IMG/VR virus record: IMGVR_UViG_3300018080_000131
Location: 37,075 to 101,074 of that record
Length of the DNA: 64,000 bases
Direction: 5' to 3' (one strand)
From: a virus
Part shown: positions 12,935-28,754 of the stretch, piece by piece
Position numbering within the stretch: the stretch's first letter is position 1
Layout of the letters: the number at the start of each line of letters is the position of its first letter
Notes under the pieces: generated by a model
What the model saw: the letters and a program-made list of their open reading frames with translations, nothing else
What the model was told of the DNA's origin: nothing
Database searches by the model: none
Position numbers and translations under genes: made by a program

Positions 12935-14491
12935 ATGGAAAATTTAATAGAGAAAAAACCAAGAAATATCATACAAGCTTTTGAAGAAGAGGAGTTTTTT
13001 GGTAAGTCTTTTCCAGGTAAGAAGAAAGGAAGCTGGGATAAGTGGAAAAGCTTCTTGAAAATTGTATATGGTATCAGATTAAACAAAAGGGACAGGGAAG
13101 TTTATGAGAGATGTACTGGTAGAAGCATTGATGATATTCCTAAAGGTGGTTTTGAAGAGTTTTATGGGATTGTAGGTAGAAGAGGTGGTAAAAGTACTAT
13201 TTCTTCATTTATTGCTTCTTATGAGGCTTTATTTGGTGGTTGGGAAAAAGTATAAGCTCCTGGTGAAACAGGAAGTGTGTTTATTGTTGCTCCTGATAAA
13301 AAGCAAGCTGGAATTATTTTCAAATATTGTAAAGCTATGATTGCTGATAATTTTAAAGATATGATTGTGAGAGATACTACAGAATTGATTAGCTTGAAAA
13401 ATGGAATTGATATTGTGATAATGCCAGCTAGAATGACAGGTTTGAGAGGTTTTTCAACTATTTGTGTTATTCTTGATGAAATTGCTTTTTTGAAAACAGA
13501 GGATTATGCTAATCCAGCAGATGAGATTATTACAGCATTAGAACCTTCTTTGAAGGCAAAAGCTAAGTTGATTGGGATTTCTACTCCTTATGGAAAATTT
13601 GGTTATTTCTATGATATGTTTAAAGAGCATTATGGAAAAAGAGGTTCTGAAATTTTAGTTTGGCAAGCTCCAACAACATATATGAATCCAAGGTATGATG
13701 TAAGTAAAATCAGAAGAGCTAAAAGAAGGGATTTGTCAAAGGCTACAGCAGAATATGAGGCTACATTTAGAGAAGATGTAAGTTCTTACATTTCAGAAGA
13801 TGAGCTTTTGGGGTTAACAGAATTTGGTATAAAAGAAAGGTTACCAGAAGAGGATATGCCTTATTATGCTTTTGTTGATGTTTCTGGTGCTAGGAAAGAT
13901 TCTTTTACTTTTGCAATTGCTCATGTTGAAGAGGATTTTGTAGTTTTAGATGTTATTTATGAAAAAGTTCCACCATATAATATTGAAAATCAGCAACAGA
14001 TTTGTGCTGATTATTTGAAGAAATTTGGAATTAGGCATATTGTTGGTGATAAATATGGTGGTGATTTTCCAGTTCAAGGATTTAAGAGGAAGGAGATTCA
14101 GTATTATCAAAGCCAAAATCCTAAGTCTGATTTATATCTTGATTTTCAGATAGTTTGTAATTTGAAAAAAGTGAAATTGCTTGATAATGAAAGAATGAGA
14201 AAGCAGTTTATTATTTTAGAAAGGAAAACAGATGCTTCAGGAAAAGATTCTGTAATTAAGCCAAGAAATACTCATGATGATGTTGCTAATTCAGTTGCAG
14301 GAGCAGTAGTAATGGCATATAGGAGTATTTCAACTAGACCTTCTGAGGAAGAGCTAAAAAGCAGGATGTTTAGGAAAGTGCATAAAAGAGGGTTGAATTA
14401 TGATGAGGAATGGGCTAATATTTTGAAAGAAGCTGAAAAAGAAATGGAAGAGCAGTTAGCTAGAAGAAAAAAAGGAGAAGGAGAAAAATGA
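12935..14491 (+). pseudogene. terL: terminase large subunit interrupted by an in-frame TAA at 13253-13255
   Basis: Walker A GRRGGKS in the 5' part; Walker B ILDEIAF, ISTP, nuclease FVDVSG and HDD in the 3' part; both parts in the same frame. Confidence 0.85.
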
Positions 14492-14715
14492 AAGGTTTGA
14501 TATATTACATAAACAAGATTTTAGGTAGAGTTCCAACAGAAACAGATAAGAGTTTTGCTAAAAAAGAGCTTGAGTATTTTATGAGAGGTAGAGGTGCTAC
14601 TCATAGGTTTGTAAGACCAGGAGAAAGATTCAGAAAGCCTTGGAAAAAAAAGAAAAAGCTTAAAGTTGGTGAATCTGAGAGAATTGGAAGATTTTACAAA
14701 TATGAGGAGAAATAA
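14488..14715 (+). CDS. basic hypothetical protein
   Basis: RBS GGAG; overlaps terL stop. Confidence 0.5.
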   Translation: MKGLIYYINKILGRVPTETDKSFAKKELEYFMRGRGATHRFVRPGERFRKPWKKKKKLKVGESERIGRFYKYEEK

Positions 14716-14984
14716 GAATATGGATAATATTGGAAAAGAAATTATTTATTTTGAAGAATGGGTAGATAAGAGAATAAGACATATTGAAAGAAAGGAAAAG
14801 AGGAAACTTTTTATTAAATATTTAAAATATTATCTTACTAAAATGGAAGAGGCTATGGAAAAAGATGATAAGGTTAAGGTTCTTTCATTACAAAGAAAGT
14901 TTAAAGAAGAAGATGTTGGTTTTTATTATGTTTTTAAAATGGCAAGTTATTTTGCAAATAAACTATTTGATGAGGAGTAATTTA

Positions 14985-15105
14985 TAGGCTGAAATATGAG
15001 TAAAATATACCTGTATAAGGCTATTAGAGCTATTCTAAGCCAAAAACTTTATAATACAAGTATGTTTGCATTAATGGAGTTTTAATAAGGCTTAAAAATG
15101 ATTTG
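14985..15105. repeat. ~115 bp phased intergenic element, copy 2
   Basis: Colinear with 9921-10040 and 27975-28093. Confidence 0.8.
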
Positions 15106-15119
15106 GAGGTGATTAAATA

Positions 15120-15248
15120 ATGGCTAAAAGAGGTGTTCCTAAAAGAGATGGTTCTGGAAGAGGAACTAGAGCAAATAGAGGAAGAGGTGGATGTTCTTCA
15201 ACTAAAGTTAGAGGACAGGGAAGAAGTGGAAACAGAGGAAGGAGATAA
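15120..15248 (+). CDS. small Gly/Arg-rich protein (MAKRGVPKRDGSGRG...)
   Basis: GGAGGTG RBS; 42 aa; absent from ORF track. Confidence 0.6.
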   Translation: MAKRGVPKRDGSGRGTRANRGRGGCSSTKVRGQGRSGNRGRR

Positions 15249-15518
15249 AATGAATATTTTTGAGCTTAAATGTTATTACTGTGGAAACATTAATAAAATA
15301 AAGTATCTGGGTAATGAAGAACCAAAGAAAGTAAAGTTTCAGTGTAGAGAATGTAAGAGAGATATAAAGTATGAGGATGAGGTTGCTAGAAATTTTAGGT
15401 TTTACTAATGCTAGTTGAATATTTAGAAGCTTTGGGTTTTATTGCTTTAATTTGGGTTCTTCTTTTTATTTGGGAAAGATTAGGAAGGAAGAAGAAGCTG
15501 AAATTGTAGTTTTTTGTC

Positions 15519-15989
15519 ATGAAACATAGAACCAGAATTGAAAGAAAAAACAGAAAAAGCAAGAGATATATGACCTTGCATAAAAGTGGTTGGTTGTCTC
15601 AAAAGGACTTATCACAATTTTTGAATATCAGCATATGGACAATAAGAAGATGGAGTGGGTTAAGATATTGGAATACTTGGGATATTCCAGAAGGTTTTCC
15701 CAAACCAGTTGCAAAAGATGGAGAATGGAGATGGAATCTGAAAGAGGTTTTGGTTTTTTGTGGATTTAAAAAAGAAGAGGATGAAATGAGCTATCATGAA
15801 TTAACAGAGATTGAAAAATTGCTTAAAACAAATGAGGTTGCTGAAATGCTAAGATGTACTCATTATTGGGTTAGAAAATTGGCAATAAAAGGTGATTTGG
15901 ATTATGTTAAGCTTGGTAACCAGTACAGATTTAGGTATAAAGATGTACTAGATTTATTGAATAAAAAAAGGAAAAATTGTAGGATATAG
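15519..15989 (+). CDS. tandem MerR/AlpA/excisionase-type HTH DNA-binding protein
   Basis: Two HTH_17-like units (LSQKDLSQFLNISIWTIRRW..FPKP; LLKTNEVAEMLR..VRKL..G.L..VKLGNQYRF). Confidence 0.75.
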   Translation: MKHRTRIERKNRKSKRYMTLHKSGWLSQKDLSQFLNISIWTIRRWSGLRYWNTWDIPEGFPKPVAKDGEWRWNLKEVLVFCGFKKEEDEMSYHELTEIEKLLKTNEVAEMLRCTHYWVRKLAIKGDLDYVKLGNQYRFRYKDVLDLLNKKRKNCRI

Positions 15990-16929
15990 GTGGTGAGAAA
16001 ATGAGCAAACATGCAGAATATTCTTTTACCAGAAAAGCTGTTTTGAAAAGGGATAAGAGGAATAAGAAAAGGAAGAAAAGAGGTAAGGGAAGTAAGCATG
16101 TAAGGAAAAGCAAGTAAAATGAACCAGTATATGAAAGAAGAGGAGCTTATAGAAGAGGCTTTGAAAAAATTGCATTTGTTAACTGGTGAAAAATGTCAGG
16201 AAAGGAAAGAAAAACAGGTTTTGAAAAAGTTGGTTGAAATAATAAAGAAAAAACAGATTAATCAATTGAAGAAAGATTTAAAAGGGGTAATAGACTATTT
16301 TACAGATAGGAGAGTAATATGAGTATTATGATATTAAACAATATTTTGTATAGGTATAGAGATTTTATTAAACACAATAACTTATCATATATGAAAAGCA
16401 GGTATAATTTTTCTGATGATTTTGATGAGTGGTGTAATAGAACAGAATAAAAATTAGGGGTATGGGTATAAAAGAGAAGATAAGGAAAATGAGGTTGGCT
16501 ATAATACCAGATATGCCTAATATAATAACAGTAGATGATATAATGTTGTATATACCTAATGGTTGTATAGAATCTGATATATGGGATTATGTGGATTGGG
16601 AAAGAGAGATAAAAGAAAATAGGGAGTAGGGTTGAAAAGAGAAGTAATGAAAATGCAGAGGATAGTATAGAAAGGAAACATACCTAAAATAGAGATATTT
16701 TTATAGGGTATGGGTATAAAAGAATGGTATATAGGAAAGAAAAAGGTAGTAGAAGGAAAGTAGATACATTGTATATACTTCATGAGGTGTCAAAAACTGC
16801 TCAATTTTTTGCAAGACAAAACCAAAACCAAGGCAAAGAAAAAAGAAGGCTTACTCCAGGGGTAGACCTCAGTTGCAAAGTTGTTGGCACAGGAGAGTAT
16901 GTTTTAGGTTATGAGGCTTTTTGAAGGGT

Positions 16930-16959
16930 ATTATACCACAAATGAGGGGTGTATGTCAA
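16930..16959 (-). promoter_or_regulatory. leftward sigma70 promoter
   Basis: Minus strand TTGACA-18-TATAAT with extended -10 TG. Confidence 0.65.
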
Positions 16960-17130
16960 GTAGGATGGTGCTGAAACAGGCTTGGGCTTCCAGAACAGCA
17001 GGGGTTTCTGATGAGCATGGTAGAATCTGTAAAAAACCAGCATATACCACAATATATAGGGGTATTGATGCTGTATATACTAGTCAAAAAAGTTAAGTTG
17101 CAGAAAATAAAAGAGATATGGGTAGAAAAA

Positions 17131-17158
17131 AGTTTACATAATAAAAGTTATAAGACAC
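17131..17158 (-). other. dif-like XerC/XerD recombination site
   Basis: Minus strand GTGTCTTATAA-CTTTTA-TTATGTAAACT (11-6-11 architecture, canonical XerD arm). Confidence 0.75.
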
Positions 17159-18550
17159 AGGTGGGGTATATGATGCAGGATTCTGGTAGTGAAAGTAAAG
17201 TTCAGGTGCAGTTGCAGGAACATTTTGGTATCAAAAGCCAGCAGAAGTTCTCAGGAGTTGGGGATTTTTTTCTTGGAATATGCAGAAGACAACAAGTACA
17301 CCAGTTATACAGTAACAGGGGTAGGATTCCTTGGAATTGAGAAAAAGGATTGTTTACAGTGAAATGTGGTACTATATAGATGAAAGGAGAGAATAATGAG
17401 TATTGTTTATGACCCTACAATAGAAGCCAAAGTGGTGCTTTGTCCTAAGTGTGAGGCTAATATGGAAGACTTGGAGTTTGAGATTGCTGGAGATGGTCTT
17501 TGGGAGTGGAAGTGTAATAAGTGTGGATATAGTTGGACAATGACAGAAGAGGAGATGAAGGAGTTGAGATGAAAGAAAAGGTTTACTGTTGCAATTGTAA
17601 GTATTTTTATGGGTTTACTTCTCCAAATAGCCAAAAGACTTGTTTGGCTAAGTGTTTTACCAGAAGTACTCCAATAGTTCCAAAAGAAATCTTTAATCAG
17701 GATGGTGAGTTGCTGGGGACAAGAAATCCAGAAGAGGTTAATAGAAATAATGATTGCCCAGATTATAAAAGGAAATGGTGGAAGGTTTGGGTATGAAAGA
17801 AAAAGAGATTATACTACAATTAATGGAGGCTTGTAATACTTTAATGGATGAGGTTGTAGGAAAGAAAGCTACTAGATGGGGTGTTGTCAATAAGGCTCTT
17901 GTTGATGGAAGTAAGTATATAAAGGAAATAGAAAAAAAAGAGATGATACAAAAAATAAAAAAATTGGGGTATATTGATGATTAGAAAACAGAAGAAAGCT
18001 TATAAGAAGCTAAAGAAACACTACAAAAAACATATTGAAAGCTGGGAAAAATGGTTAACACATATAGAGGAATACAGAATACCTTATTTTCAGGAAGAGC
18101 AGAGAAAGTATCATATACTGTTAAAGAATAAGAAAGAGATATTGGATTATTTAAGTGAGTATTATGGTTATTTAGCTGAATTGGAATACAAAAGAAAACA
18201 GATGGAAAAAGAAGAGGAAAGAAGAATCTCTTTTATAGGATTAAGATGAAAGAATATTTTAATTGTCTTAAATGTGGTTCTTTGTGTGAGGTTGTTTTCA
18301 AGGATAATGATGAGTATTCTGGAGAAGAGGTTTGTGAGAAATGTGGTGCTTCTCATGAGGTGTATTTAGTAACAGAATTGAAAGTATCTTTAAATGAAGA
18401 ATAGATAATTGTCAGAAATGAGGCTTCTCACTTCTGACAAAAAAGGTGATAAGTTATGGAAAAAATTGAGAAAATGAAAAAAACTTTGCTGTATAAAATG
18501 CTTGTTTATAACAAGTTAAAAGAAAAAAGAAAAAAATTTCAAAAAAAGAC

Positions 18551-18579
18551 TTGACAAATGATAAAAAATGTTTTATATT
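18551..18579 (+). promoter_or_regulatory. sigma70-type promoter, repeat copy 2 (drives ncRNA operon)
   Basis: TTGACA-17-TATATT. Confidence 0.85.
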
Positions 18580-18606
18580 GTGATTGTCTTCAGTTAGAAG
18601 ATGTAA

Positions 18607-18621
18607 GTTCTTTAACAATTT
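18607..18621 (+). promoter_or_regulatory. rrn-type boxA antitermination element
   Basis: GTTCTTTAACAATTT versus rrn leader GCTCTTTAACAATTT, ~25 nt after the predicted start site. Confidence 0.75.
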
Positions 18622-18626
18622 AATTG

Positions 18627-18883
18627 ATTGTCTCTTCTGAGAGAAGGGAGTTAATCCACAGTTCATCTTGAGCTTGGGAAAAGTTCCTAGAGGATGGAAG
18701 ATTCAACTAATCTGAGGATAGGTGTTGAAAACCTAGATGATTCACCTAGTTAGGAGTAGCTAACCTAATGATGATGGTGGTTGGGGTGTCCCCCCTGACA
18801 GTTGACCCTAGTTCTCCAAGGGTGTTCTTGTTACCAAGTGAGCTTAGTTGCAAGAGCTTGGTACTTCTCCCAGAAGAGACAAT
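18627..18883 (+). ncRNA. structured RNA unit 1 (degenerate tRNA-like core ~18639-18872)
   Basis: 20 bp closing stem 18627-18646/18864-18883; multiple internal hairpins; ends TTCTCCCA. Confidence 0.65.
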
Positions 18884-18889
18884 AAAATG

Positions 18890-19101
18890 TTTTCCTTCTA
18901 ATGGGAAGGTCAACTAGACAGAAGACTTACTCATTAGTGAAACAGGGAATTGATTAATGCTTTTAAGTAGGCATGGTCAGCATCTGAGTAGAACCATCTG
19001 TGGTAAGCAGAAAGACAAAAGGCTCTGTTGGCTGTCAGTTCTTTGTGAAGTATTAATGCTTCTTGCAGGTGGAATTCCTGCTCTTCCCATTAGAAGGAAA
19101 A
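18890..19101 (+). ncRNA. structured RNA unit 2 (expanded tRNA-like core 18903-19089)
   Basis: Acceptor GGGAAGG/TCTTCCC-A, T-arm GCAGG-TGGAATT-CCTGC, variable-arm-like hairpin, ~13 bp flanking stem extension. Confidence 0.7.
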
Positions 19102-19117
19102 ATAAAAAATTCTCCTT

Positions 19118-19327
19118 AGAGTTTTTTCTGGGAGAATAGCTTAAGAAAGCTGTAATGCATTTAATAGGATGCTGGTGAGATGAGATGGTTATACTAGTTG
19201 CCATTTTATCTTCTCAATTCCAGCACTATGACTATAGCATAGTTAGCATAATAACAGTTTAAAGCTCTGGTTCTTTGAATCAGGTAAATGTTGGTTATGA
19301 AATCCAACTTCTCCCAGAAAAAACTTT
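19118..19327 (+). ncRNA. structured RNA unit 3 (tRNA-like core 19130-19316 with ~120 nt D-loop insert)
   Basis: Acceptor GGGAGAA/TTCTCCC-A, TA, D-stem GCTT/AAGC, anticodon-like arm CTGGT-TCTTTGA-ATCAG, T-arm GTTGG/CCAAC. Confidence 0.75.
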
Positions 19328-19393
19328 GGTGAGTAAAGTATTGTATAACAATAACTTAGAAAAAAACTTTAAAAAAAAAATGAAAAAAAAGAC

Positions 19394-19422
19394 TTGACAA
19401 ACACATAAAAATGTTTTATATT
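19394..19422 (+). promoter_or_regulatory. sigma70-type early promoter, repeat copy 3
   Basis: TTGACA-17-TATATT. Confidence 0.85.
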
Positions 19423-19431
19423 ATAAGTATG

Positions 19432-19611
19432 ATGATAAACAAAGAAACAAGCAAAACAAAACAAAGCCTTCTTGATGAGCTTTCTATCATTAGAGAAGAT
19501 ATTAAAGATGTTCAGTTTTCTATCCAGAATGGCAACATTTCTGATGTTTCTATTCTTAAAGGTCTTCAGGAAGTTGAAACATCTCTCTTAAATCAAATAA
19601 AGGAGTTTTAA
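19432..19611 (+). CDS. small early protein, probably leaderless
   Basis: ATG at the predicted transcription start, no Shine-Dalgarno. Confidence 0.55.
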   Translation: MINKETSKTKQSLLDELSIIREDIKDVQFSIQNGNISDVSILKGLQEVETSLLNQIKEF

Positions 19612-19612
19612 G

Positions 19613-20098
19613 ATGACAATTAAGTTTCATAGGCACTCAGGTTTTTATGGTGATGGCAATTCCAGGTATTTCTGGGAAGACAGAGAGTTGGATTTGTCAA
19701 AAGGTGTCATGAAGATTCATACTGTGGTTTCCAAGTATGGTCAGTTGGCTAGTAATGGTAACTTTCAGGAAGATACTGAGGATGAGGAAATTCAGGCTAT
19801 TCCTTTTAATAAGGAAACAGAAGAGCAGATTTATGAGATTCTTCTTCCTCTTATTGAAACAAAAGAGAAGTATCCTCATCTTGTTAACTTCAGATTCTTT
19901 TCCTACAAACACAAATTGTTTGTTACTGGTAGGATGAATAAAGCTGTTAAGATTGCTGTTAAGAGTGGTAGTCATTATTATGGTACAGATTGCAGTAAAA
20001 ACATCTTTGTGCTTCAGAGAAAAGGGTTGGTTGTTACTACTTATTATGAAGATACCTTCAAACATTCCTTCTGGAAAATCAAAGTGGAGAAAATATAA
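19613..20098 (+). CDS. early hypothetical protein
   Basis: AAGGAG RBS; 161 aa. Confidence 0.6.
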   Translation: MTIKFHRHSGFYGDGNSRYFWEDRELDLSKGVMKIHTVVSKYGQLASNGNFQEDTEDEEIQAIPFNKETEEQIYEILLPLIETKEKYPHLVNFRFFSYKHKLFVTGRMNKAVKIAVKSGSHYYGTDCSKNIFVLQRKGLVVTTYYEDTFKHSFWKIKVEKI

Positions 20099-20133
20099 GT
20101 TGAAAAAAACTTTAAAAAAAATGAAAAAAAGAC

Positions 20134-20162
20134 TTGACAAATGACTAAAAAAGTGTTATATT
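20134..20162 (+). promoter_or_regulatory. sigma70-type early promoter, repeat copy 4
   Basis: TTGACA-17-TATATT. Confidence 0.85.
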
Positions 20163-20198
20163 ATAAGTAGAATGAGAAACAAAAAAGGAGAAACAAGG

Positions 20199-21011
20199 AT
20201 GAAACAAACAATTTATTACTTTGGTGAGAAACTTAGCTTCATGATTGAGACAGATTCTTCAGATGAGGCTCAGGCTCTTTTAGACTCTGAAAGAGCTAAA
20301 GGAAGAGCTTGTTGCTGTCTTCATGAAAATGGGAAACATCAGATTTATTCCCAGATTCCAGAAGAAGCAGTTAGGTTTCAGGTAGCCAACATTGACACTG
20401 AGGAAATTTATTTTGTCAGTGGTTGGGAAGAAGGTAGAGATAGTACTGACAAGTCAGCAATTCAGGAAGCAATCAAACTCAATGATACAATCACAATGGG
20501 TAAGGTGATTGTAACTCCAATTAGGTTTACTGATATTCTTGATGAACTGAATAAAGAGGCTCAGAAGGATGATTTACCTCTTGATGCTTCTAGGGAAGGC
20601 TCAGTGATGCATGGTATCCTAAAAGACTCTCAGAAGGCTTCTAATGAGCTTAAAGAGGTATTTGGTGATGTTATTAGTAAGTATACTGATGATGAGGCTG
20701 TAGATGATGGGCTTTTAGTTCCAGTTGAAGACCTTTTGCCAATTACTTATATGACAGCAGGTGTTTATGCAAAGTGTATTGAACCTTTTGTTTTAAAGGA
20801 TGTTATTACTGGTAGGACAATTAAGGGTACTTCTCCAAAAGCTTTGACAAAGAAGCTTATCACAAGAATCATTTCTGCTGTGAGTCTTCAGATAAGTGAT
20901 GGTTCTGCTCCTTCTGATGATTGGATGTATAAAGTTGATGCTTCAGGTTGGGAATTCTTTGTGGTTGAAAACCAGACAGGTTTTACAGTGATGTTTCCAG
21001 AGGAGTATTAA
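20199..21011 (+). CDS. early protein with DUF6573-like C-terminal domain
   Basis: FGDVISKYT..EAVDDG.LV...TVMFPEEY pattern. Confidence 0.55.
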   Translation: MKQTIYYFGEKLSFMIETDSSDEAQALLDSERAKGRACCCLHENGKHQIYSQIPEEAVRFQVANIDTEEIYFVSGWEEGRDSTDKSAIQEAIKLNDTITMGKVIVTPIRFTDILDELNKEAQKDDLPLDASREGSVMHGILKDSQKASNELKEVFGDVISKYTDDEAVDDGLLVPVEDLLPITYMTAGVYAKCIEPFVLKDVITGRTIKGTSPKALTKKLITRIISAVSLQISDGSAPSDDWMYKVDASGWEFFVVENQTGFTVMFPEEY

Positions 21012-21012
21012 G

Positions 21013-21444
21013 ATGACCTATAAAAAAGCACTTGGTTTGCTTATAGGAATTGCTAAGGATAATGGTATTAAGGTTTGTTTTCATGAGAGTGAATCTGAAA
21101 TAAGAGGTTATTGTATACCATCTGAGAAAAAAATAGTTCTTAATAAAAAGGCTATTTTAGACAAGCATGGAGAAAGGATGTTTTACTCAAATGTTACAGC
21201 AGTTTTGGCACATGAAATTGGTCATATTATGCTTCAGCATATTAGGCTTTGTGTAGATAGTTTTGATGAGATTATTGAGCAGGAAAAAGAGGCTTGGATG
21301 TATGCTAGTTTTCTTTTTAGTAGATTGGGTATAAGAATAACTAAAACATTTATAAATAGTATGGAAGAAGGTATTGAGAGTTATAGAATTGCTTATATGC
21401 AGAATATGGCTAAAGCATATAATAAATCAAAAGGAGAAAAGTGA
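21013..21444 (+). CDS. ImmA/IrrE-like metallopeptidase
   Basis: I.LN..., VLAHEIGH, E.EAW.YA. Confidence 0.7.
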   Translation: MTYKKALGLLIGIAKDNGIKVCFHESESEIRGYCIPSEKKIVLNKKAILDKHGERMFYSNVTAVLAHEIGHIMLQHIRLCVDSFDEIIEQEKEAWMYASFLFSRLGIRITKTFINSMEEGIESYRIAYMQNMAKAYNKSKGEK

Positions 21445-21658
21445 AATGAAAAAAACTACAATTTCTGATTTATTTAACAAGAAGGTTGAGTATGGTGGTG
21501 AGATTAGGACTTATGGAAGTGTCAGGAAGGAGCTTGAAGAAAAGGAGTTTCCATCACAATTGATTGACTATTATATGATGGGTTTACTTACTATGATGGA
21601 GAGGAAGGATTCTTCAAAGTAAAAGTGTATAACAAAAAAATTTGAATGAGGTGTTTTT

Positions 21659-21859
21659 ATGGGTAAGAGATATGTTAAGCATATGGAATGGAAGAGTAAG
21701 AGTTGGTTGGAGAAAGAGTATATAGAGAAACAAAAGAGTGTTAGAGAAATTGCTAAGGAATGTGGGGTTGCTGTTAGGACAATTGCTTATTGGCTAGAAA
21801 AGTTTGATATAAAAACAAGAGATATTTCTAAGAGTCTAGAGGTTAAATATAGGAGATAA
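21659..21859 (+). CDS. HTH DNA-binding protein
   Basis: SVREIAKECGVAVRTIAYWL. Confidence 0.75.
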   Translation: MGKRYVKHMEWKSKSWLEKEYIEKQKSVREIAKECGVAVRTIAYWLEKFDIKTRDISKSLEVKYRR

Positions 21860-22298
21860 TATTGTTATTTAAAAACAAGATGAAACAAAAATTAGGTAAA
21901 GATGATTATGGATTTGTGATTAATGGAGAAACTGGAAATTTGGAAATGTCTCTTCCTAAGAAGGAAGAGTATACAATAAAAGAATTAAGCATTGTTTTAG
22001 CTGGTCTTGAAAAATTTAAAAAAGCTTTCAAGATATTAGTGGAAAATGGAGAGTAAATAATGACAAAAAGAATATCAAGTAATATAACAAAATCAAGTAA
22101 AAAGAAACAGTGGACTTGTAAAAAATGTGGTAAAAAAGGTATTGTAGGTGAGTATACACAATCCTTAATCTGTGGTGATTGTGGAAATGTGATTAGTGAA
22201 TTTAAACAGGTTGAGATTATTACAGAACCTTGGATTGGGAAACAAGAAGAGATTATGGAAAGTGATAAATAAAATTACATTTTTTGAAGGAGATTGAA

Positions 22299-22922
22299 AT
22301 GCTAAGTAATTTTAAATTTACAGAACCTTTGGTATTTGATAATATTTATAATATTCCTGTTATAGAGAAGCAGGAGTTTAAGTTTGATGTTAATAAGGTT
22401 ATGGGTTTTAATTATTGTCTAAGTAAGAAGGAATTGATTGAGAATACAATTCATTTTTTCTTAGATGATTATCAGTTTGAGAGGGTTTGGAATAAACCTG
22501 AAAGATATTTGAAGATTCTGAAGGAGTTTAATGGTTGTTTTTCTCCAGATTTTTCAATATTTAGAGATGCTCCTTATCCAATTCAGCTATTTAATGTTTT
22601 TAGAAACAGAATAGTTGGGTTATATTGGCAAAGGAATGGTATTAATGTTATTCCTACAGTTGGTTGGGGTGATGTTGATACTTGGGATTTTTGCTTTGAA
22701 GGAGTAGAGGAAGGTTCTTGGGTTGCTATTTCAACAAGAGGAGCAATTCATAGAAATGAAGATAAAGAGTTGTTTAAAGAGGGTTATAATCAGATGTTAG
22801 AGGTTATTAAACCTGAGAAGATTATTGTCTATGGTAGGAAGTTGGAAGGTCTTGATGGAAACATTGAGTGGATTCCTTGGGACTATTATAGAACAGAAAA
22901 ATTAAATAGTGAGGAGAATTAA
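22299..22922 (+). CDS. DUF4417 domain protein
   Basis: IHFFLDDYQFERVWN.P, SPDFS, YWQ.NGINVIPTV.W, VYG. Confidence 0.85.
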   Translation: MLSNFKFTEPLVFDNIYNIPVIEKQEFKFDVNKVMGFNYCLSKKELIENTIHFFLDDYQFERVWNKPERYLKILKEFNGCFSPDFSIFRDAPYPIQLFNVFRNRIVGLYWQRNGINVIPTVGWGDVDTWDFCFEGVEEGSWVAISTRGAIHRNEDKELFKEGYNQMLEVIKPEKIIVYGRKLEGLDGNIEWIPWDYYRTEKLNSEEN

Positions 22923-22923
22923 T

Positions 22924-23190
22924 ATGGGAGGAAGAGGTTCAGGTTCAGGTGGTGGAGCAGGTGGTGGTGGAGGTGGTGCATCTCCAGAAACACCAGCACA
23001 AGCTCAGGCTATGATTGATTCAATTGATAGTAGAATGGATGGTTTGAGAACTAGGATTAGGTATCATATTGAGAGAGGTGCTACTTCTCAAGCTACTGCT
23101 TTACAGAGAAGATTAAGAAGGCTACAACAAAGAAAAAAAGCTTTACAAGCTTTAATGAAGAGGCTTCAAAAAGCTGGTGTTCCAACATAA
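22924..23190 (+). CDS. MGGRG-start Gly-rich/coiled-coil protein (DUF4417 partner)
   Basis: MGGRGSGSGGG N-terminus, GAGGAG RBS. Confidence 0.7.
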   Translation: MGGRGSGSGGGAGGGGGGASPETPAQAQAMIDSIDSRMDGLRTRIRYHIERGATSQATALQRRLRRLQQRKKALQALMKRLQKAGVPT

Positions 23191-23205
23191 TAATTAGGAG
23201 ATATA

Positions 23206-24756
23206 ATGGATTTTAAAGGATTTTTCTATAGGGTTTGGTATGATTGGTTGAATCTAAGAAAGAATGTATTCTGTCCTTTGGCAAAAAAGAATAATTGGAA
23301 ATGGTTATTTAATGTTTGTGATTGTCAGAGATATGAACCTAAATATATTTGGGTATGGGTATGTTCTGATTGTGGTAAGTTGACAGAAGAAGGAAAACCA
23401 AAAGCTATTTATAAAAAATTCCTTAAAGGAACAGAACCTACAGAGAAGTGTACTTGTGCAATTATACCACCAATAGAAAAAGTAGAAAGAACCATTTGTC
23501 TTGTTAGTGGATTGCTTGCTAGAGGTTTCTGTTTACATACAGAAGTGAGAGAATACAACAAAGGAACAGAACCTACAGAGAAGTGTGATGTTCATGATTT
23601 TGTAAAATCTAAAAGAGATGAAGAAAAATGTGCAGGTATGCTAGGTTTCTTTTTAAGCTTTATTAGACAAGCTTGGAATCCTAAAGACCAGATGAAAACT
23701 GTTGAGGAACACCAAGCTGTTTTTTCTGAGTTAGCAAGAAGAGGATATAAGTATGTTGATTGGTTTATGTGGTTATGTGATAATAAATATGAACATAAAT
23801 ATTTAAATGATAAGACTCCTTTTTATCAATATAAAAATGCTGTTGGGAAAAGGATGTTTGATTTAATGAAATGGGATGAAAGATTTTGGGAATTGTTTGA
23901 GATATTTATTAAACTACATAAACAGTTTAATCTTGTCCCTGTTCCTCAGATTCTTATGGCTAGATATTGTGATTATCCTTTTGAGAATAATAGAAATAAA
24001 GTTAGAGGTTTTTGGGATAAAACAGCTAGAGATGTTCAGTATGATTTGATTGATAAAACTGTTAGCATTGTTAAAGGAATTGTTGGAAAAGATTTTCTTG
24101 TGAAGTTTGTAAATGAACCTCAGCATGGTGGAAGTGATAGTAGGTTTCATACAATTGCTGAATGGCATCATGATATGTTTTGGCATGGTCTTTGCAAACA
24201 TTTTGATACTGGAGAAGAGGCTTTGAGTCATTTGGTCATTGATAATTCTGGTTCTGAAGCTGGTCAATTGTTGTTGGTTTGGCATCATGGTGGTGAAGAT
24301 GGTCAAAGGTGTCCTAAATGTGGTAAGCTTTTTAAAGATATATTTGGCTACAGTACTGAAGAATGGATGGGTAGGCTTAGAATTGGAGAACAGCACACTG
24401 TTAGTATTGTGGATGATTTGGAAGCTGGTCATAATTCTTTAAGAAAGTTTTTTGGTTCTGCTAATAGAAAGGTGAGATGGCATGAAGATGGTGGTGCAAG
24501 TGATTGTTCTAAAGCTCATGGTTACCATAATGGATATTGTTTTGCTAATGCTGAAGAGTATGGTAAAATGTGTGCTAAGGTATGGAAGATGCAAGCTGAA
24601 AGAGGAAGAGGAAAGATATGTTATATTTGTATATTTCCTGCTGAAACATTATTTTATATTGATAAGGTTTTCCTAGAAACTTACAGAGTAGATACTATTA
24701 ATTGGGACAGATTTGATGAAATGGTGAAAATGCATAAAAAATATCTTGGAGATTGA
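23206..24756 (+). CDS. Cys-repeat N-terminus plus glycoside-hydrolase-like (TIM barrel?) domain
   Basis: Two KGTEPTEKC repeats; FVNEP acid/base-like motif; aromatic-rich. Confidence 0.45.
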   Translation: MDFKGFFYRVWYDWLNLRKNVFCPLAKKNNWKWLFNVCDCQRYEPKYIWVWVCSDCGKLTEEGKPKAIYKKFLKGTEPTEKCTCAIIPPIEKVERTICLVSGLLARGFCLHTEVREYNKGTEPTEKCDVHDFVKSKRDEEKCAGMLGFFLSFIRQAWNPKDQMKTVEEHQAVFSELARRGYKYVDWFMWLCDNKYEHKYLNDKTPFYQYKNAVGKRMFDLMKWDERFWELFEIFIKLHKQFNLVPVPQILMARYCDYPFENNRNKVRGFWDKTARDVQYDLIDKTVSIVKGIVGKDFLVKFVNEPQHGGSDSRFHTIAEWHHDMFWHGLCKHFDTGEEALSHLVIDNSGSEAGQLLLVWHHGGEDGQRCPKCGKLFKDIFGYSTEEWMGRLRIGEQHTVSIVDDLEAGHNSLRKFFGSANRKVRWHEDGGASDCSKAHGYHNGYCFANAEEYGKMCAKVWKMQAERGRGKICYICIFPAETLFYIDKVFLETYRVDTINWDRFDEMVKMHKKYLGD

Positions 24757-24830
24757 AAAAAATTTTGATGTGTAAAGTATTGTATAATAATAACTTAGAA
24801 AAAAATTTAAAAAAAATGTTAAAAAAACAC

Positions 24831-24859
24831 TTGACAAACAAGAAAAAATGTTGTATATT
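24831..24859 (+). promoter_or_regulatory. sigma70-type early promoter, repeat copy 5
   Basis: TTGACA-17-TATATT. Confidence 0.85.
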
Positions 24860-24892
24860 ATAAGTACAATGAGAAACAAAGGAGAAACAAAG

Positions 24893-25198
24893 ATGACAGA
24901 AACAAAAGAAAGACCAGAGGTTAAAGCTGGTGATTTTGTCAATCCTGATGGTTGGGGAAAGTGGAATGGTGAAATACTTCAGGAAGATGATGGTTTCAAA
25001 GATTCTTCTTTTCCTGGTTGCCAGTTCAGGCTTCCTTCTAATACCTGTCCTGATTGTAAGTTTGCTGTTAATGTCAGAATAACAGGTAAGGAAAGATGGG
25101 ATAAAGGTTCTGGTTGGTTCAGGTGTGAAGTTGAGTTTGTTGGTGATGGAGAACCTTCAACATTCACCAGAGGCTGGCTTCATAAGAATGTTTGGTAA
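24893..25198 (+). CDS. early hypothetical protein
   Basis: AAGGAG RBS. Confidence 0.6.
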   Translation: MTETKERPEVKAGDFVNPDGWGKWNGEILQEDDGFKDSSFPGCQFRLPSNTCPDCKFAVNVRITGKERWDKGSGWFRCEVEFVGDGEPSTFTRGWLHKNVW

Positions 25199-25805
25199 AA
25201 AGGAGAGATAAAATGGCATTAGGAAGTAAGAAAAGAGATTATGTAACTTCAGCAAGATTGGTTGAAAAAAGGCTTGCTCTTCATTTTCAGTTTATGAATG
25301 AATATATTCAAAATGGAATGGAAAAAGATGAAGCAAGTAAGAAAGCTTTTAAGGATATTCAAGAAGGAAGGATAAAGTAATGGTTGGTTACATTAGTTGG
25401 AAATATAATAATGCATGTTTACCAGAAGAAGGCTATATTGAAGTTGTGATTATGACAAAGAAAGAGAAGATTAGTAACTTCTATAAAATTAAAAGATTTG
25501 AAGGTGATGATTTGAGAGATGGTAATATTGCTGTATTCTACAATAGATTAATTACTGGTTCTTTTTGGAGAAGTGGTCAAACTATTTTTTATACTGATAA
25601 TGTTCCTTGTAGAACTAATGTTGAAGAGTTAAAGAGTTATAAGGTTTGTGAGAATTGTATTCATCTTACACAAGGTTTCCACCAGATAAAGGGTAGAAAA
25701 ACTTATACTTTTGAGTGTGGTAGTTTTGAAAGTAAGAAGAAAGGAAAGAAGGTTAGTTTATCAGATACCTGTGAAAAGTTTTTTTCAAAAAAATGAAAAA
25801 AAGAC

Positions 25806-25834
25806 TTGACAAATAAAATAAAATGTGTTATATT
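25806..25834 (+). promoter_or_regulatory. sigma70-type early promoter, repeat copy 6
   Basis: TTGACA-17-TATATT. Confidence 0.85.
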
Positions 25835-25867
25835 ATAAGTAGAATGAGAAATAAAGGAGTAAAAAAG

Positions 25868-26251
25868 ATGAGTAGAGAAGAAAGTAATAGGCTTGAGAGG
25901 CTTATGAGTGGTTTGGAAGAAGTTACTGGTCATAGGGCTTCTATGAGTCAGAAGGAGCTTTGGAATCTTGCTCCTAAAGAGGCTAAAAGAACTGTTAGGA
26001 AAATGAGAAGACTTGAAAAAAAAGCTAAAAGGCTTCCTAGTAGGAGTTCTCATCCTGAGCTTCAGAGTGTTACTGTTCCTAGATTGGCTGATGGTCTTAT
26101 GAGATTGGTTGGTAATACTCTTAGGGTTGGAAATAAAGTTCTTGTTGGTGGAGAACCTGCTAGACAGCTTCATAAACATGGTGCTATGATGGAAAGTGAT
26201 TATCAGAATTATAAAGCTAAAGATTCTAAAAATAAATCAAGGCATTTGTAA
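25868..26251 (+). CDS. basic early hypothetical protein
   Basis: AAGGAG RBS. Confidence 0.6.
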   Translation: MSREESNRLERLMSGLEEVTGHRASMSQKELWNLAPKEAKRTVRKMRRLEKKAKRLPSRSSHPELQSVTVPRLADGLMRLVGNTLRVGNKVLVGGEPARQLHKHGAMMESDYQNYKAKDSKNKSRHL

Positions 26252-26499
26252 AAATGTGAGGTGATATGAATGAGTAAATATAATGTTAGGGTTTTAAGTT
26301 TTCTATATGATATTAATAAGCTTGATTCAGATATTGCTGGGTATCCTCATTATTTTACTGTAGAAGCAAAATCCAAAAAAGAAGCAGAAGAGAAAATGAG
26401 AAAGAAAATGGTTAAAAGATATGGAGAAAACTATTTTAAAATAACTGATGTTGAATTATATGATAAAGATTTTGCTTCTTATGATTAAAGGAGAATAAA

Positions 26500-27126
26500 A
26501 TGAGTGAGCTTCTAGAAAAATTCAAGAGTCTTTTAAAGAAAAGAGAAGGAATTGTACATGAAAGAAGCAAGCTTTATAAGTTGAAGTTTGATATGAGAGA
26601 TGCAGATTATCAAGAGAGATATGATAAAACTAAGTTCCAGCTAAGAAAGTTTGATGATAGAGAGAGAAAGATTAACAAGCTTCTTGATGGTCTTGCTAAA
26701 GAGCTTCCTGTTCAGGTTAGTAAGAATTGGAAGAAGTATGATTCAGTTTGGGAGTCAACATATTCTTCTCAAGGGTTTGGTTCTTATAAGTATGCTAAGG
26801 AAAGAGCAGAAAAAATAGCTGATGATATTAAAGTGAATGGTGTTCCAGTGAAGATAGAGATTGAAACAAAGAAGTTTGAAGGTTCTGGTTCTATATTTAG
26901 TAGTAGAAATTCTCATTCAACATTTAATATTTATGTGAAAGCTGATAAGGTAAATAGAGAGATTCTTAAAAGAAAACCTGGAGTTACTTTTAGGGAATGG
27001 ATTAGGTTATGCTGGAAAAGAGGTGTTAATCCAAGAGTATATAATCCTTTTCTTCCTCATGGTTTGGAAGAGAAGCTTGAGATTGATTATTTTGGAAATG
27101 ATTTAAGAAAAGGAGAAGTAAAATGA
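26500..27126 (+). CDS. hypothetical protein
   Basis: AAGGAG RBS; 208 aa. Confidence 0.6.
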   Translation: MSELLEKFKSLLKKREGIVHERSKLYKLKFDMRDADYQERYDKTKFQLRKFDDRERKINKLLDGLAKELPVQVSKNWKKYDSVWESTYSSQGFGSYKYAKERAEKIADDIKVNGVPVKIEIETKKFEGSGSIFSSRNSHSTFNIYVKADKVNREILKRKPGVTFREWIRLCWKRGVNPRVYNPFLPHGLEEKLEIDYFGNDLRKGEVK

Positions 27127-27323
27127 CAGTAAAAGAATTAATCAAAAGGCTTGAGGCTTTGGATGCTCCTGAAGCTTTAATTTTTGTTGATGTAATGAGA
27201 TTTGGTGATGTTGTGCAAAGTGGATTGCAAATTACTAGGGTAGAAAGAGAAGATAATTTTGAAATCTCCCATGTTGTGGAGTTTACAATAGAAAAGTAAT
27301 TTAAATTAATTAGGAGAAATAAA

Positions 27324-27983
27324 ATGAATGAAAATGAAAACAAAGAAGCCAAGGATTCTAGGGTTGGAGTGCTTAACAAGCATAGTTTGGATTTATTCTT
27401 ATTAGTTGATAAGAATAAGGCTATGAAAAGGGATGTTTTAAATGGTATTCATGTTACAGGTGAGTTTACAGAAGTTACTAATGGTCATTATGCTATGAGA
27501 ATTAGTAATAATCATATGCATCATGATGATTATCCAAATGGTCCAAATGGTGAAAAGATTAGTGATAAGAAGGAAGTTGATATTGTTGTTCCTGTGGAAG
27601 TTGCAAAAAAACTACAAAAGAATTTGCCAAAAATGAAGAGTCTTCCTATGATGGAAAATGCTGTTTTTGGTGAAAACACAAAAGAAGATAATTCAAATGT
27701 TGAAATTATCACTTATGATTTAGAGGCTTGGAATCCAGTTAACTTCAAACCTATTGAAGATAAGTTTCCTGATATGGATGCTGTCATTCCAAAGAAACAA
27801 GCTGAAATTGAAATTGGTTTTAATCCAGATTATATGATAAAGCTTTGTCAACAGTTTAAGAAGAATGGTGTTGATACAGTTAAGCTGTCTATTCATTCTC
27901 CAACAGAGGTTATGGTGTTGGATGGATGGAATTCTAGAACTGACCAGGAGATAAAAGCTTTGTTGATGCCAAAAAAGGTCTAG
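27324..27983 (+). CDS. DNA polymerase III beta-clamp-like protein (two-domain)
   Basis: LNGIH...TNGHYA, KFPD..VIP, IGFNPDY, ALLMP resemble DnaN domains 2-3. Confidence 0.7.
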   Translation: MNENENKEAKDSRVGVLNKHSLDLFLLVDKNKAMKRDVLNGIHVTGEFTEVTNGHYAMRISNNHMHHDDYPNGPNGEKISDKKEVDIVVPVEVAKKLQKNLPKMKSLPMMENAVFGENTKEDNSNVEIITYDLEAWNPVNFKPIEDKFPDMDAVIPKKQAEIEIGFNPDYMIKLCQQFKKNGVDTVKLSIHSPTEVMVLDGWNSRTDQEIKALLMPKKV

Positions 27984-28093
27984 AATATGGGTAAAATTTA
28001 TGCTTCTAAGGCTCTAAGAGGCTTTCTAAGCTAAAAACTATGTTGTATAAGTATATTTGCATTAGTGAGTAGATTGAGGAGCTTAAAATGGGT
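27975..28093. repeat. ~115 bp phased intergenic element, copy 3
   Basis: Colinear with copies at 9921 and 14985. Confidence 0.75.
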
Positions 28094-28311
28094 AATAGGA
28101 AGAGACAAAAAGAGAATTTGAAGAAGCTTCAGGAGTGGATGTTGGAAAAAGAAAAGGAAAATAAAGACAAAGAGATTAGAAAAATGAAGGATAAGAAACA
28201 TGAGGCTATTAGGAAAGAAAAGGAGAAAAAGAAAAATCTGAAAAGAGTTGACAAGATGAGAAAGAATGTTGATAGATTAAAAAGAAAAAAGGAGAGGGAG
28301 AAGATGAAGAA

Positions 28312-28737
28312 GTGAAAAAAATTTTATGTTTGTTGGCTATGTTGCTTTTTATTCCAGGGTGTATTATAATCAGTGAGGATTTTCAATATAGCAGATATGA
28401 GAGGTTAAGGTTTAGAAATCCTGTTAGAACAGTTTATTACAGTTATTGTGATTATAGTATTTGGAATCCTTATTGGTATACTAATTGGTATTATGCTAAT
28501 TGGTACAATTGGAGATATAATAGATACTGGAGAAGTTACAGAAATAATTATTATTGGTCAGGTACAACAAGAAGTTCTTCTAGTGATGTAATATCAAAAA
28601 GTAGTTTGAGAGATAGAAGTAAAAATAAAAGAGTGAGTGGGGTTGTTTCAAAAAGTAAGATTAAACAAAAGACCAGTAATAGTGGTTCTAAAAAAACAGT
28701 GAATAAAAGTAAGGGAAAGGTTAAAAAAAAGAAATAA
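28312..28737 (+). CDS. putative lipoprotein (Tyr/Trp-rich, basic tail)
   Basis: MKKILCLLAMLLFIPGC lipobox-like signal. Confidence 0.55.
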   Translation: MKKILCLLAMLLFIPGCIIISEDFQYSRYERLRFRNPVRTVYYSYCDYSIWNPYWYTNWYYANWYNWRYNRYWRSYRNNYYWSGTTRSSSSDVISKSSLRDRSKNKRVSGVVSKSKIKQKTSNSGSKKTVNKSKGKVKKKK

Positions 28738-28754
28738 GATAATAGGAGTAAAAA

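What the first reader, a model, noticed from the sequence alone, without database searches (positions are those of the whole stretch)
17131..17158. dif-like XerCD site in a large tailed phage with no integrase in view
Seen: GTGTCTTATAA-CTTTTA-TTATGTAAACT, whose right arm matches the Bacillus-type XerD arm. It lies in a non-coding region ~1.1 kb from an excisionase-like tandem HTH gene. Established: host Xer recombinases resolve plasmid dimers and integrate IMEX elements at dif. Inference: the phage borrows host XerCD to resolve circular multimers (plasmid-like state) or to integrate at dif.
Basis: partly seen in the sequence, partly recalled or inferred. Interest (0 to 1): 0.7.

Follow-up and report, generated by a model that had tools for sequence, protein, structure and literature searches.

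The report
Host-type dif site in lytic-looking phage
A large tailed phage with no integrase carries one exact copy of the two protein-binding arms of a bacterial chromosome-untangling (XerC/XerD "dif") site but with its own 6-base centre, a layout that also recurs in dozens of other tailed-phage contigs and suggests these phages use the host enzymes on their own DNA rather than to insert into the chromosome.

Summary
The 28-bp site is real: GTGTCTTATAA-CTTTTA-TTATGTAAACT on the minus strand at 17131-17158. The right arm alone is expected by chance (0.15-0.26 per genome). The full arm pattern is not (3-9e-6), and the next-best match in the 101-kb record has 4 mismatches.

Both arms are 22/22 identical to dif-type sites of two Ignavibacteriales MAGs, the only exact hits among 185,579 species genomes. 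In that order, 71 of 121 sampled genomes hold a site within 3 mismatches, nearly always with spacer TGTATA.

The same arm pattern occurs in 86 IMG/VR contigs with 55 different spacers. These sites are mostly intergenic, often beside terminase or portal genes, and rarely near an integrase. One group is the Bacillus phi4J1-type phages, which match 247 Bacillus plasmid records.

This phage looks lytic: Gp23-type capsid, RNR, PolA, primase. No integrase, resolvase, ParB or XafT was found in the 65% of the genome held. The site lies in a 15-kb accessory insert that the nearest relative lacks, so conservation could not be shown.

Best reading (about 0.4): a Xer core site for phage-by-phage recombination (multimer resolution or circularisation), not integration. 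The scan has noted similar sites in other phages. Interest is moderate.

The parts
17131..17158 (-). 28-bp dif-like Xer core site, 11-6-11: GTGTCTTATAA-CTTTTA-TTATGTAAACT
   Evidence: Unique in the 101-kb record. Expected 3-9e-6 by chance for the 19 specified bases of the class pattern.
17148..17158 (-). XerC-side (left) arm GTGTCTTATAA
   Evidence: Identical to the left arm of dif-type sites in two Ignavibacteriales MAGs. It fits the order-wide nTGTC(C/T/G)nATAA pattern. It is a CG-free variant, in a genome with 7 CG observed against 2071 expected.
17142..17147 (-). 6-bp central region CTTTTA (private spacer)
   Evidence: Differs from TGTATA/TATATA, which are found in 65 of 74 places in Ignavibacteriales genomes. 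It keeps the TA next to the XerD arm, as do about 75% of 73 non-redundant class sites (this phage's own site included).
17131..17141 (-). XerD-side (right) arm TTATGTAAACT
   Evidence: Identical to the B. subtilis dif right arm (PMC3025954) and to the near-invariant right arm in Ignavibacteriales.
16630..17395 (.). About 770-nt stretch without a supported gene, which holds the site
   Evidence: Only short orphan ORFs with low coding scores. No Rfam match. RNA fold no better than shuffles, z = 0.29. ORF 17011-17340 has no homologues.
16930..16959 (-). Perfect sigma-70-type promoter match (TTGACA-18-TATAAT with TG) on the minus strand, 170 nt from the site; context only
   Evidence: All credible genes of the window are on the + strand.
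15519..15989 (+). HTH_17 (MerR/excisionase-type) DNA-binding protein, 156 aa; neighbour, role unknown
   Evidence: Pfam PF12728 at 4.6e-13. PHROG excisionase/regulator at 1.6e-8 and weak small-terminase family at 1.2e-4. No relatives in IMG/VR.
12935..14491 (+). Large terminase, read as two adjacent ORFs (12935-13255 and 13277-14491); its end is 2.6 kb upstream of the site
   Evidence: PHROG terminase hits. Both ORFs match one continuous TerL ORF in relative L268.
14492..29929 (+). 15.4-kb lineage-specific accessory insert between terminase and portal modules; it contains the site
   Evidence: In relative L268 (TerL 48%, portal 53% identity), TerL and the pre-portal gene are about 0.4 kb apart, and TerL and the portal gene about 1.2 kb apart. 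Almost none of the genes of 14492-29929 have a homologue there.

Best explanation
The 28-bp sequence is a genuine Xer-type recombination core: an XerC-binding arm, a 6-bp crossover region and an XerD-binding arm. The phage carries it so that the host's own XerC/XerD can recombine two copies of the phage site with each other.

The arms are host-type but the crossover region is private (CTTTTA rather than the chromosomal TGTATA). A complete exchange is therefore possible between two phage copies but is disfavoured with the chromosome. The likely uses are:
- turning dimeric or multimeric circular replication forms into monomers
- circularising DNA whose terminal redundancy holds the site, as Cre-loxP does for P1 (recalled from memory)

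Shown: the sequence, its uniqueness, the identity of its arms to real dif sites, and membership of a recurrent phage-borne class. Inferred: binding, catalysis, the partner site, and the benefit to the phage.
For: 1. Architecture and statistics.
2. The arms are 22/22 identical to sites in two Ignavibacteriales MAGs, the only exact hits in 185,579 species genomes. One of these lies between convergent genes in a neighbourhood that appears to recur, by ORF sizes and order only, next to the canonical site of another genome of the order.
3. In that order, 71 of 121 genomes have a site within 3 mismatches. The right arm is almost invariant and the spacer is TGTATA or TATATA in 65 of 74 places.
4. The same arm pattern occurs in 86 IMG/VR contigs spanning GC 0.29-0.67, with 55 different spacers and only 2 with TGTATA. 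Conserved arms with free spacers are what self-recombining Xer sites such as plasmid cer, psi and pdif show (PMC5357621).
5. In 77 of 86 of these contigs no ORF of 80 aa or more spans the site.
6. The neighbours are enriched for small terminase, large terminase, portal and HNH genes. An integrase lies within 4 kb in only 2 of 78 loci.
7. Five class contigs, four of them at least 92% complete, have no tyrosine recombinase and a single site each.
8. One class group is Bacillus phage phi4J1/phiS58/TP21T/Waukesha92, which matches 247 Bacillus plasmid records. Such phages are described as plasmid prophages that need dimer resolution (PMC8026635).
9. This phage's site also lies next to the packaging module, 2.6 kb after TerL, and keeps the TA at the XerD side of the spacer like about 75% of the class.
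Against: - No recombination product, second site or circular form is seen.
- The site is not conserved in the nearest relatives, because the whole 15.4-kb region is missing from them. No convincing site was found in 2.6 Mb of loci around related capsid and terminase genes, apart from two distant terminase relatives.
- The phage looks lytic: Gp23-type capsid, RNR, PolA, primase. Phages that replicate as concatemers have no obvious need for dimer resolution.
- No ParB and no XafT-like XerD activator was found, so how XerD would be activated away from the septum is unknown.
- The host is not established independently. A spacer-type DNA search of 401 Ignavibacteriales genomes and two host-like genes gave no signal.
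- A phage-encoded recombinase could lie in the missing 35% of the genome.
Confidence: 0.4

Rival explanations
1. Passenger or relic. The site is a real Xer-type core that arrived with horizontally acquired DNA, from a plasmid, a phage-plasmid or another phage. It sits in the hyperplastic terminase-portal insert without serving this phage.
For: The site lies in a 15.4-kb accessory insert that the syntenic relative L268 lacks. The insert is full of orphan genes. The phage otherwise has a lytic-type gene set, with no ParB, integrase or XafT.
Against: Both arms are perfect (22/22) and CG-free in a genome that has purged CG. An unused relic would be expected to decay. The position beside the packaging module matches the class trend.
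Confidence: 0.2
2. Target of a phage-encoded Xer-like tyrosine recombinase that lies in the roughly 35% of the genome not in the record. This would be a self-contained resolution or integration system, as in many plasmid prophages.
For: The record is about 65% complete. Bacillus phage phi4J1 carries the same kind of site together with an annotated integrase 16 kb away. Plasmid prophages usually encode Xer-related recombinases (PMC8026635).
Against: There is no tyrosine or serine recombinase in 101 kb. Five other class contigs, four at least 92% complete, have none. Arms identical to chromosomal dif point to the host enzymes.
Confidence: 0.15
3. attP of an IMEX-like temperate cycle. Host XerCD integrates the phage genome into the chromosomal dif site, as for CTX, VGJ and TLC phages and the dif-type double-jelly-roll (DJR) prophages.
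For: Host-type arms with no integrase. The spacer shares T3, T5 and A6 with TGTATA, including the two bases next to the XerD arm, which could support an XerD-first exchange like TLC phage (PMC9226527 and PMC5357621). Some Ignavibacteriales MAGs hold extra dif-type sites with odd spacers: G002 with CGGTCA near a contig end, and G047 with GATGTA, the same spacer as viral contig L002.
Against: The predicted genome is about 155 kb and lytic-type. No XafT/DUF3653 was found. No integrated relative was found. Only 2 of 86 class spacers equal the canonical one. Known IMEXs are filamentous or DJR phages (PMC12715192).
Confidence: 0.12
4. Chance resemblance in an AT-rich, compositionally skewed genome.
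For: The right arm alone is expected 0.15-0.26 times per genome. The scan read about 250,000 windows, so rare coincidences will occur. The site is not conserved in relatives.
Against: The expected number for the class pattern is 3-9e-6 per genome, and for the full 22 bases 4e-8 to 1.5e-7. There is a clear gap between 0 mismatches and the next best at 4. The arms are exactly identical to natural dif-type sites of one bacterial order. The site lies in a gene-poor stretch beside the packaging module, like the class.
Confidence: 0.12

Closest known systems
Chromosomal dif of Ignavibacteriales (and the Firmicutes-type dif, e.g. B. subtilis Bsdif)
   Same: The 11-6-11 layout is the same. The right arm is identical to Bsdif. 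Both arms are identical to the site of MAG G001.
   Different: The spacer is CTTTTA, not TGTATA or TATATA. The site is on a phage, not at a replication terminus, and there is no GC-skew switch.
Plasmid multimer-resolution sites cer (ColE1), psi (pSC101) and pdif (Acinetobacter plasmids)
   Same: All are host XerCD core sites carried on a mobile replicon. The arms are conserved, each element has its own central region, and recombination occurs between copies of the element.
   Different: cer and psi need about 180 bp of accessory sequence bound by PepA with ArgR or ArcA (PMC5357621). No conserved flanks are seen in the phage class. This replicon is a large, lytic-looking phage with no plasmid maintenance genes found.
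IMEX attP sites (CTX, VGJ and TLC phages; dif-type DJR prophages of Vibrio)
   Same: An integrase-less virus carries a dif-like site that mimics the host arms (PMC12715192, PMC6744903).
   Different: Known IMEXs are small filamentous or tailless viruses found integrated at dif. Here there is a tailed phage of about 155 kb, with no integrated copy, no XafT-like factor and a spacer unlike the host's.
Cre-loxP of phage P1 (knowledge from memory, plus PMC2409434 abstract)
   Same: One recombination site on a tailed phage keeps the genome monomeric and can circularise terminally redundant DNA. This is the functional analogy proposed here.
   Different: P1 encodes its own recombinase and is a proven plasmid prophage. 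Here the enzyme would be the host's, and the lifestyle is unknown.
dif-like site of Bacillus phages phi4J1, phiS58, TP21T and Waukesha92 (Rockvillevirus and relatives)
   Same: The XerD arm and the TGTC..ATAA left-arm pattern are the same. Each phage has a single intergenic site, about 1.5 kb upstream of terS, with a private spacer TAACTA.
   Different: Those phages are temperate siphoviruses that match 247 Bacillus plasmid records, and phi4J1 encodes an integrase. No sequence or gene homology to this phage was seen beyond the shared core site.

Membership tests
Xer (dif-type) core recombination site | Two 11-bp arms with inner dyad ATAA/TTAT, separated by a 6-8 bp central region | tested here: met
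   GTGTCTTATAA-CTTTTA-TTATGTAAACT
Xer (dif-type) core recombination site | Arms match those of a bona fide chromosomal dif | tested here: met
   22/22 match to G001 and G002 sites. An order-wide single-copy site family was found in 71 of 121 genomes. The right arm equals that of Bsdif.
Xer (dif-type) core recombination site | Bound and cleaved by XerC and XerD | not testable with these tools
   Needs EMSA and recombination assays.
Chromosomal dif | Single site at the replication terminus, at the GC-skew switch, with the lineage's canonical spacer | tested here: not met
   Cumulative GC skew is monotonic across the window. The spacer is CTTTTA against TGTATA. The replicon is a virus record.
IMEX attP | The element lacks its own integrase | tested here: met
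   PF00589 and PF00239 are absent from the 101 kb, but the record is only about 65% complete.
IMEX attP | Integrated copies flanked by dif/attP hybrid sites in host chromosomes | tested here: inconclusive
   No integrated relative was seen in the loci fetched, and a DNA search of 401 Ignavibacteriales genomes gave only short noise matches.
IMEX attP | Spacer homology to host dif on the side of the first strand exchange, or an activation factor (XafT/DUF3653) | tested here: inconclusive
   3 of 6 spacer bases are shared with TGTATA, including the TA at the XerD side. DUF3653 is absent.
Plasmid-type multimer resolution site (cer/psi) | Accessory sequences beside the core that bind PepA with ArgR or ArcA | tested here: inconclusive
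   No conserved flanking positions among 73 non-redundant phage-borne sites. Accessory proteins of the candidate hosts are unknown.
Plasmid-type multimer resolution site (cer/psi) | Carried by a circular, stably maintained replicon (partition or plasmid replication genes) | tested here: not met
   No ParB. The contig is linear and incomplete. The replication genes are of lytic type.
Phage-borne dif-like sites beside packaging genes (class defined here from 86 IMG/VR contigs) | A single TGTCNNATAA-N6-TTATGTAAACT site with a non-canonical spacer ending in TA, in gene-free DNA near terminase or portal genes, with no integrase nearby | tested here: met
   for the class. This phage has a single site with spacer CTTTTA, 2.6 kb after TerL, and no integrase.

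The most novel reading that the evidence does not exclude
Many tailed phages, including lytic ones, carry one host-type dif core with a private crossover region next to their packaging genes. The host XerCD machinery then works on phage DNA, either circularising incoming terminally redundant genomes or resolving replication multimers before packaging. This would be a general host-factor dependency not described in the searched literature, and this phage would be a large, CG-free, Gp23-capsid example, probably infecting Ignavibacteria-like hosts.
Probability: 0.3. Interest if true: 0.75.

Novelty: new variant of a known kind. Interest (0 to 1): 0.5.

Why it matters
Xer exploitation by viruses is documented for small filamentous and tailless phages that integrate at dif, and Xer sites are known on plasmids. 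A host-type dif core with a private spacer in an integrase-less, lytic-looking tailed phage extends this to a different use of the host machinery, namely acting on the phage's own DNA. The recurrence of the same design in 86 unrelated tailed-phage contigs, usually beside packaging genes, strengthens that extension.

The idea is testable in culturable members of the class, the Bacillus phi4J1-type phages.

The arm sequence also gives a host hint for an uncultured phage: a dif of the nTGTCnnATAA / TTATGTAAACT type, matched exactly only in Ignavibacteriales.

For this window alone the finding remains a single, unconserved site of unproven function.

Tried and rejected
- Rfam scan of 15500-18500 at E up to 1 found nothing.
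- An RNA fold of 16780-17395 was no better than shuffles, so no structured RNA explains the stretch.
- DNA search of INPHARED with 15000-19000 found no match.
- Single-protein searches of IMG/VR with the HTH protein and with TerL found no relatives.
- I first took MAG contig G002:C58, which has the same arms, for a phage relative. It was rejected: the shared protein is chromosomal PolA.
- I suspected that class sites sit at contig ends, marking prophage junctions or termini. Rejected: the short loci were a storage artefact and the sites are internal.
- Host assignment failed by three routes. GDP-fucose synthase homologues are phage-lineage genes or are spread over many phyla. Atlas look-alikes of the endolysin (Amidase_3) gave no host signal. 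A spacer-type DNA search of 401 Ignavibacteriales genomes gave only short noisy matches, many in a recurrent 40-nt stretch at the start of the endolysin gene.
- Relatives found through capsid and terminase alignments either lack the region or are too fragmentary.
- ORF 17011-17340 was tested as a gene and has no homologues.
- One search was a mistaken reference and gave nothing.

Full report
**Observation**

The + strand at 17131-17158 reads AGTTTACATAATAAAAGTTATAAGACAC. On the minus strand this is GTGTCTTATAA-CTTTTA-TTATGTAAACT, exactly as reported. The window is bases 37075-101074 of a 101,074-bp IMG/VR virus record estimated at 65% complete. GC is 31%, GC skew is +0.42, and all credible genes are on the + strand.

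The right arm is identical to the XerD-side arm of B. subtilis dif as quoted by Kono et al. (PMC3025954). That paper also notes that the Firmicutes-type dif profile fits many other phyla, so the arm is not specific to Bacillus.

**Is it more than chance?**

Expected numbers in the 101-kb record, under Markov models of order 0-3:
- right arm alone: 0.15-0.26
- right arm plus the inner ATAA of the left arm at the right spacing: 0.002-0.004
- TGTCNNATAA-N6-TTATGTAAACT: 3-9e-6
- all 22 arm bases: 4e-8 to 1.5e-7

The site is the only 0-mismatch match to the 19-base pattern in the record. The next best have 4-5 mismatches.

**Do the arms correspond to a real dif?**

An exact scan for both arms with any spacer, across one genome for each of 185,579 species, found two places. 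Both are in Ignavibacteriales MAGs.
- G001 has GTGTCTTATAA-TGTATA-TTATGTAAACT between convergent genes. By ORF sizes and order, a similar run of upstream ORFs precedes the canonical site of another genome of the order.
- G002 (Melioribacteraceae) has the same arms with spacer CGGTCA, 700 nt from a contig end. It also has a canonical TTGTCGCATAA-TGTATA-TTATGTAAACT on another contig.

Across 121 sampled genomes of that order, 71 have a site within 3 mismatches of the phage arms, almost always one per genome. The right arm is nearly invariant and the left arm follows nTGTC(C/T/G)nATAA. The spacer is TGTATA in 57 and TATATA in 8 of 74 places. So the phage carries host-type arms with a non-host spacer.

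The phage genome has almost no CG: 7 observed against 2071 expected. Its left arm is a CG-free variant of the order's commonest TGTCCG/TGTCGC forms.

**A wider class**

The same arm pattern occurs in 86 IMG/VR contigs of GC 0.29-0.67.
- They carry 55 different spacers, and only 2 have TGTATA.
- Among 73 non-redundant class sites (this phage's own site included), nothing outside the 28 bp is conserved.
- The two spacer bases next to the XerD arm are T (73%) and A (78%), as in this phage.
- In 77 of 86 contigs no ORF of 80 aa or more spans the site.

Immediate neighbours are enriched for small-terminase families (Sf6_terminase 6, GP3_package 4, Terminase_2 2, plus HTH/sigma-r4-type hits), for TerL and for HNH. 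No integrase family is among the top families. Among ORFs of at least 330 aa within 4 kb, at least 24 are large terminases, 20 are portals, and 2 are integrases, over 78 loci.

Five such contigs, four of them at least 92% complete, have a single internal site and no tyrosine recombinase.

The largest group (CTGTCATATAA-TAACTA, 12 contigs) is Bacillus phage phi4J1/phiS58/TP21T/Waukesha92.
- It matches 247 Bacillus plasmid records.
- Its site lies in an intergenic gap about 1.5 kb upstream of terS.
- phi4J1 does encode an integrase 16 kb away.
- Plasmid prophages of the B. cereus group and their need for dimer resolution are described in PMC8026635.

Earlier notes of this scan report dif-like sites beside terS or in terminal repeats of other integrase-less or lytic phages. 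I treated these as leads only. The terminase association above was tested independently here.

**The phage and the site's surroundings**

The phage has:
- a Gp23-type major capsid protein, prohead protease and portal
- RNR, primase and a PolA with a UDG domain
- a GIY-YIG homing endonuclease
- a large terminase read as two adjacent ORFs
- an Amidase_3 endolysin
- a glycan-building gene cluster

No integrase, resolvase, ParB or XafT-type DUF3653 was found in 101 kb.

The site lies in a roughly 770-nt stretch (16630-17395) with only orphan ORFs.
- The 109-aa ORF spanning it has a negative coding score, no family hit, and no homologue among 1.84 billion representatives.
- There is no Rfam match and no unusual RNA fold.
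- A perfect sigma-70-type promoter on the minus strand lies 170 nt away.
- The HTH_17 gene at 15519-15989 is 1.1 kb upstream.

**Conservation**

The nearest relative with this region, L268 (TerL 48%, portal 53%, RNR 73% identity), is syntenic. However, its terminase is followed about 0.4 kb later by the pre-portal gene and about 1.2 kb later by the portal gene. In this phage, terminase and the pre-portal gene are 15.4 kb apart (14492-29929), and that insert holds the site. Other relatives are fragments that lack the region.

In 2.6 Mb of loci around related capsid and terminase genes, only two distant terminase relatives have convincing dif-like sites:
- L223: GTGTCGCACAA-GATTCA-TTATGTCAACT
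- L287: ATGTCGGCTAA-TAACCA-TTATGTCAACT

Both are within about 1.5 kb of TerL. Conservation in this phage's own lineage therefore could not be shown.

**Host**

Apart from the arm identity, no independent host evidence was obtained.
- Fucose-synthase homologues are phage-lineage genes or are spread over many phyla.
- Endolysin look-alikes are uninformative.
- A DNA search of 401 Ignavibacteriales genomes gave only short noise matches.
- GT9 heptosyltransferase domains suggest, by inference, a diderm host rather than Bacillus.

**Interpretation**

The sequence is best read as a genuine Xer core site belonging to a recurrent phage-borne class. Host-type arms combined with element-specific spacers are what Xer sites that recombine with copies of themselves show, such as cer, psi and pdif (PMC5357621). 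This pattern argues against routine full recombination with the chromosomal dif.

I therefore favour host XerCD acting between two phage copies, for multimer resolution or for circularisation of DNA whose terminal redundancy includes the site. The second use is an analogy to Cre-loxP of P1, recalled from memory. Confidence is about 0.4.

Rivals:
- a passenger site in acquired DNA (0.2)
- a target for a phage recombinase encoded in the missing third of the genome (0.15)
- an IMEX-type attP for integration, possibly by an XerD-first exchange given the shared TA (0.12)
- chance (0.12)

No paper in the searched library links dif-like sites with terminase genes of tailed phages. Known IMEXs there are filamentous or double-jelly-roll phages.

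**Verdict**

This is a new variant of a known kind (Xer exploitation by mobile elements). It is of moderate interest for this window and of higher interest as a class. The scan has noted the same phenomenon before on other DNA.

Noticed in passing
whole record G000 (window 1-64000 and 37 kb upstream): The CG dinucleotide is almost absent: 7 observed against 2071 expected. C makes up 9% of the + strand and GC skew is +0.42. GC, CC and GG occur at normal levels.
   Followed up: partly
window 12935-14491: The large terminase is read as two adjacent ORFs (12935-13255 and 13277-14491, 21 nt apart). Both match one continuous TerL ORF in relative L268. This could be a stop or frameshift, a recoding event, a tiny intervening sequence or an assembly error. 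A GIY-YIG homing endonuclease gene (11457-12284) lies just upstream.
   Followed up: partly
window 14492-29929: A 15.4-kb accessory insert lies between the terminase and portal modules, compared with relative L268, where the terminase and pre-portal genes are about 0.4 kb apart. It holds mostly orphan genes, a DUF4417 protein (22284-22922), and the RNA-like tract at 18494-19327 that other readers noted.
   Followed up: partly
window 16930-16959, minus strand: A 12/12 sigma-70 promoter match with an extended -10 (TTGACA-18-TATAAT) points leftwards in a genome whose genes are all on the + strand. It could drive an antisense or small RNA. The minus-strand ORF 16556-16783 looks like a composition artefact.
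   Followed up: no
window 16449-17132: There are four copies of a roughly 28-nt motif (AAAAATTAGGGGTATGGGTATAAAAGAG and variants) at 16449, 16614, 16697 and 17105. The last copy abuts the XerD-side arm. These may be phage promoter or operator elements.
   Followed up: no
window 17396-17572; L045:1903-2040; L092:5670-5807: The 58-aa zinc-ribbon gene, the first gene downstream of the site, has a weak PHROG hit to a Lar-like family. It also has a weak homologue (36% identity over 58 aa, E = 1e-4) about 0.7 kb from the dif-like site of an unrelated pair of IMG/VR contigs.
   Followed up: no
G002:C58:700-727 and G002:C65:1857-1884; G047:C38:22807-22834; L002:13347-13374: A Melioribacteraceae MAG has a canonical dif and a second dif-type site (spacer CGGTCA), each near a contig end, which could mark an element integrated at dif. 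Another Ignavibacteriales genome's only match (within 3 mismatches of the phage arms) has spacer GATGTA, the same spacer as the 61-kb viral contig L002.
   Followed up: partly
NC_029008.1 (Bacillus phage phi4J1) about 39940-39966; L023:12532-12558: Cultured Bacillus phages phi4J1, phiS58, TP21T and Waukesha92, together with 247 matching Bacillus plasmid records, carry CTGTCATATAA-TAACTA-TTATGTAAACT in an unannotated gap about 1.5 kb upstream of terS. This gives a tractable model for phage-borne dif-like sites.
   Followed up: partly
window 43705-56168; L105, L106: A glycan-building cluster sits between the capsid and neck genes: GT9, GT2, radical SAM/SPASM-methyltransferase, Asn-synthase-like, DUF362, two sulfotransferases and two SDR epimerases. 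Most of it is conserved in relatives L105 and L106, so it is a lineage trait rather than a recent insert.
   Followed up: partly
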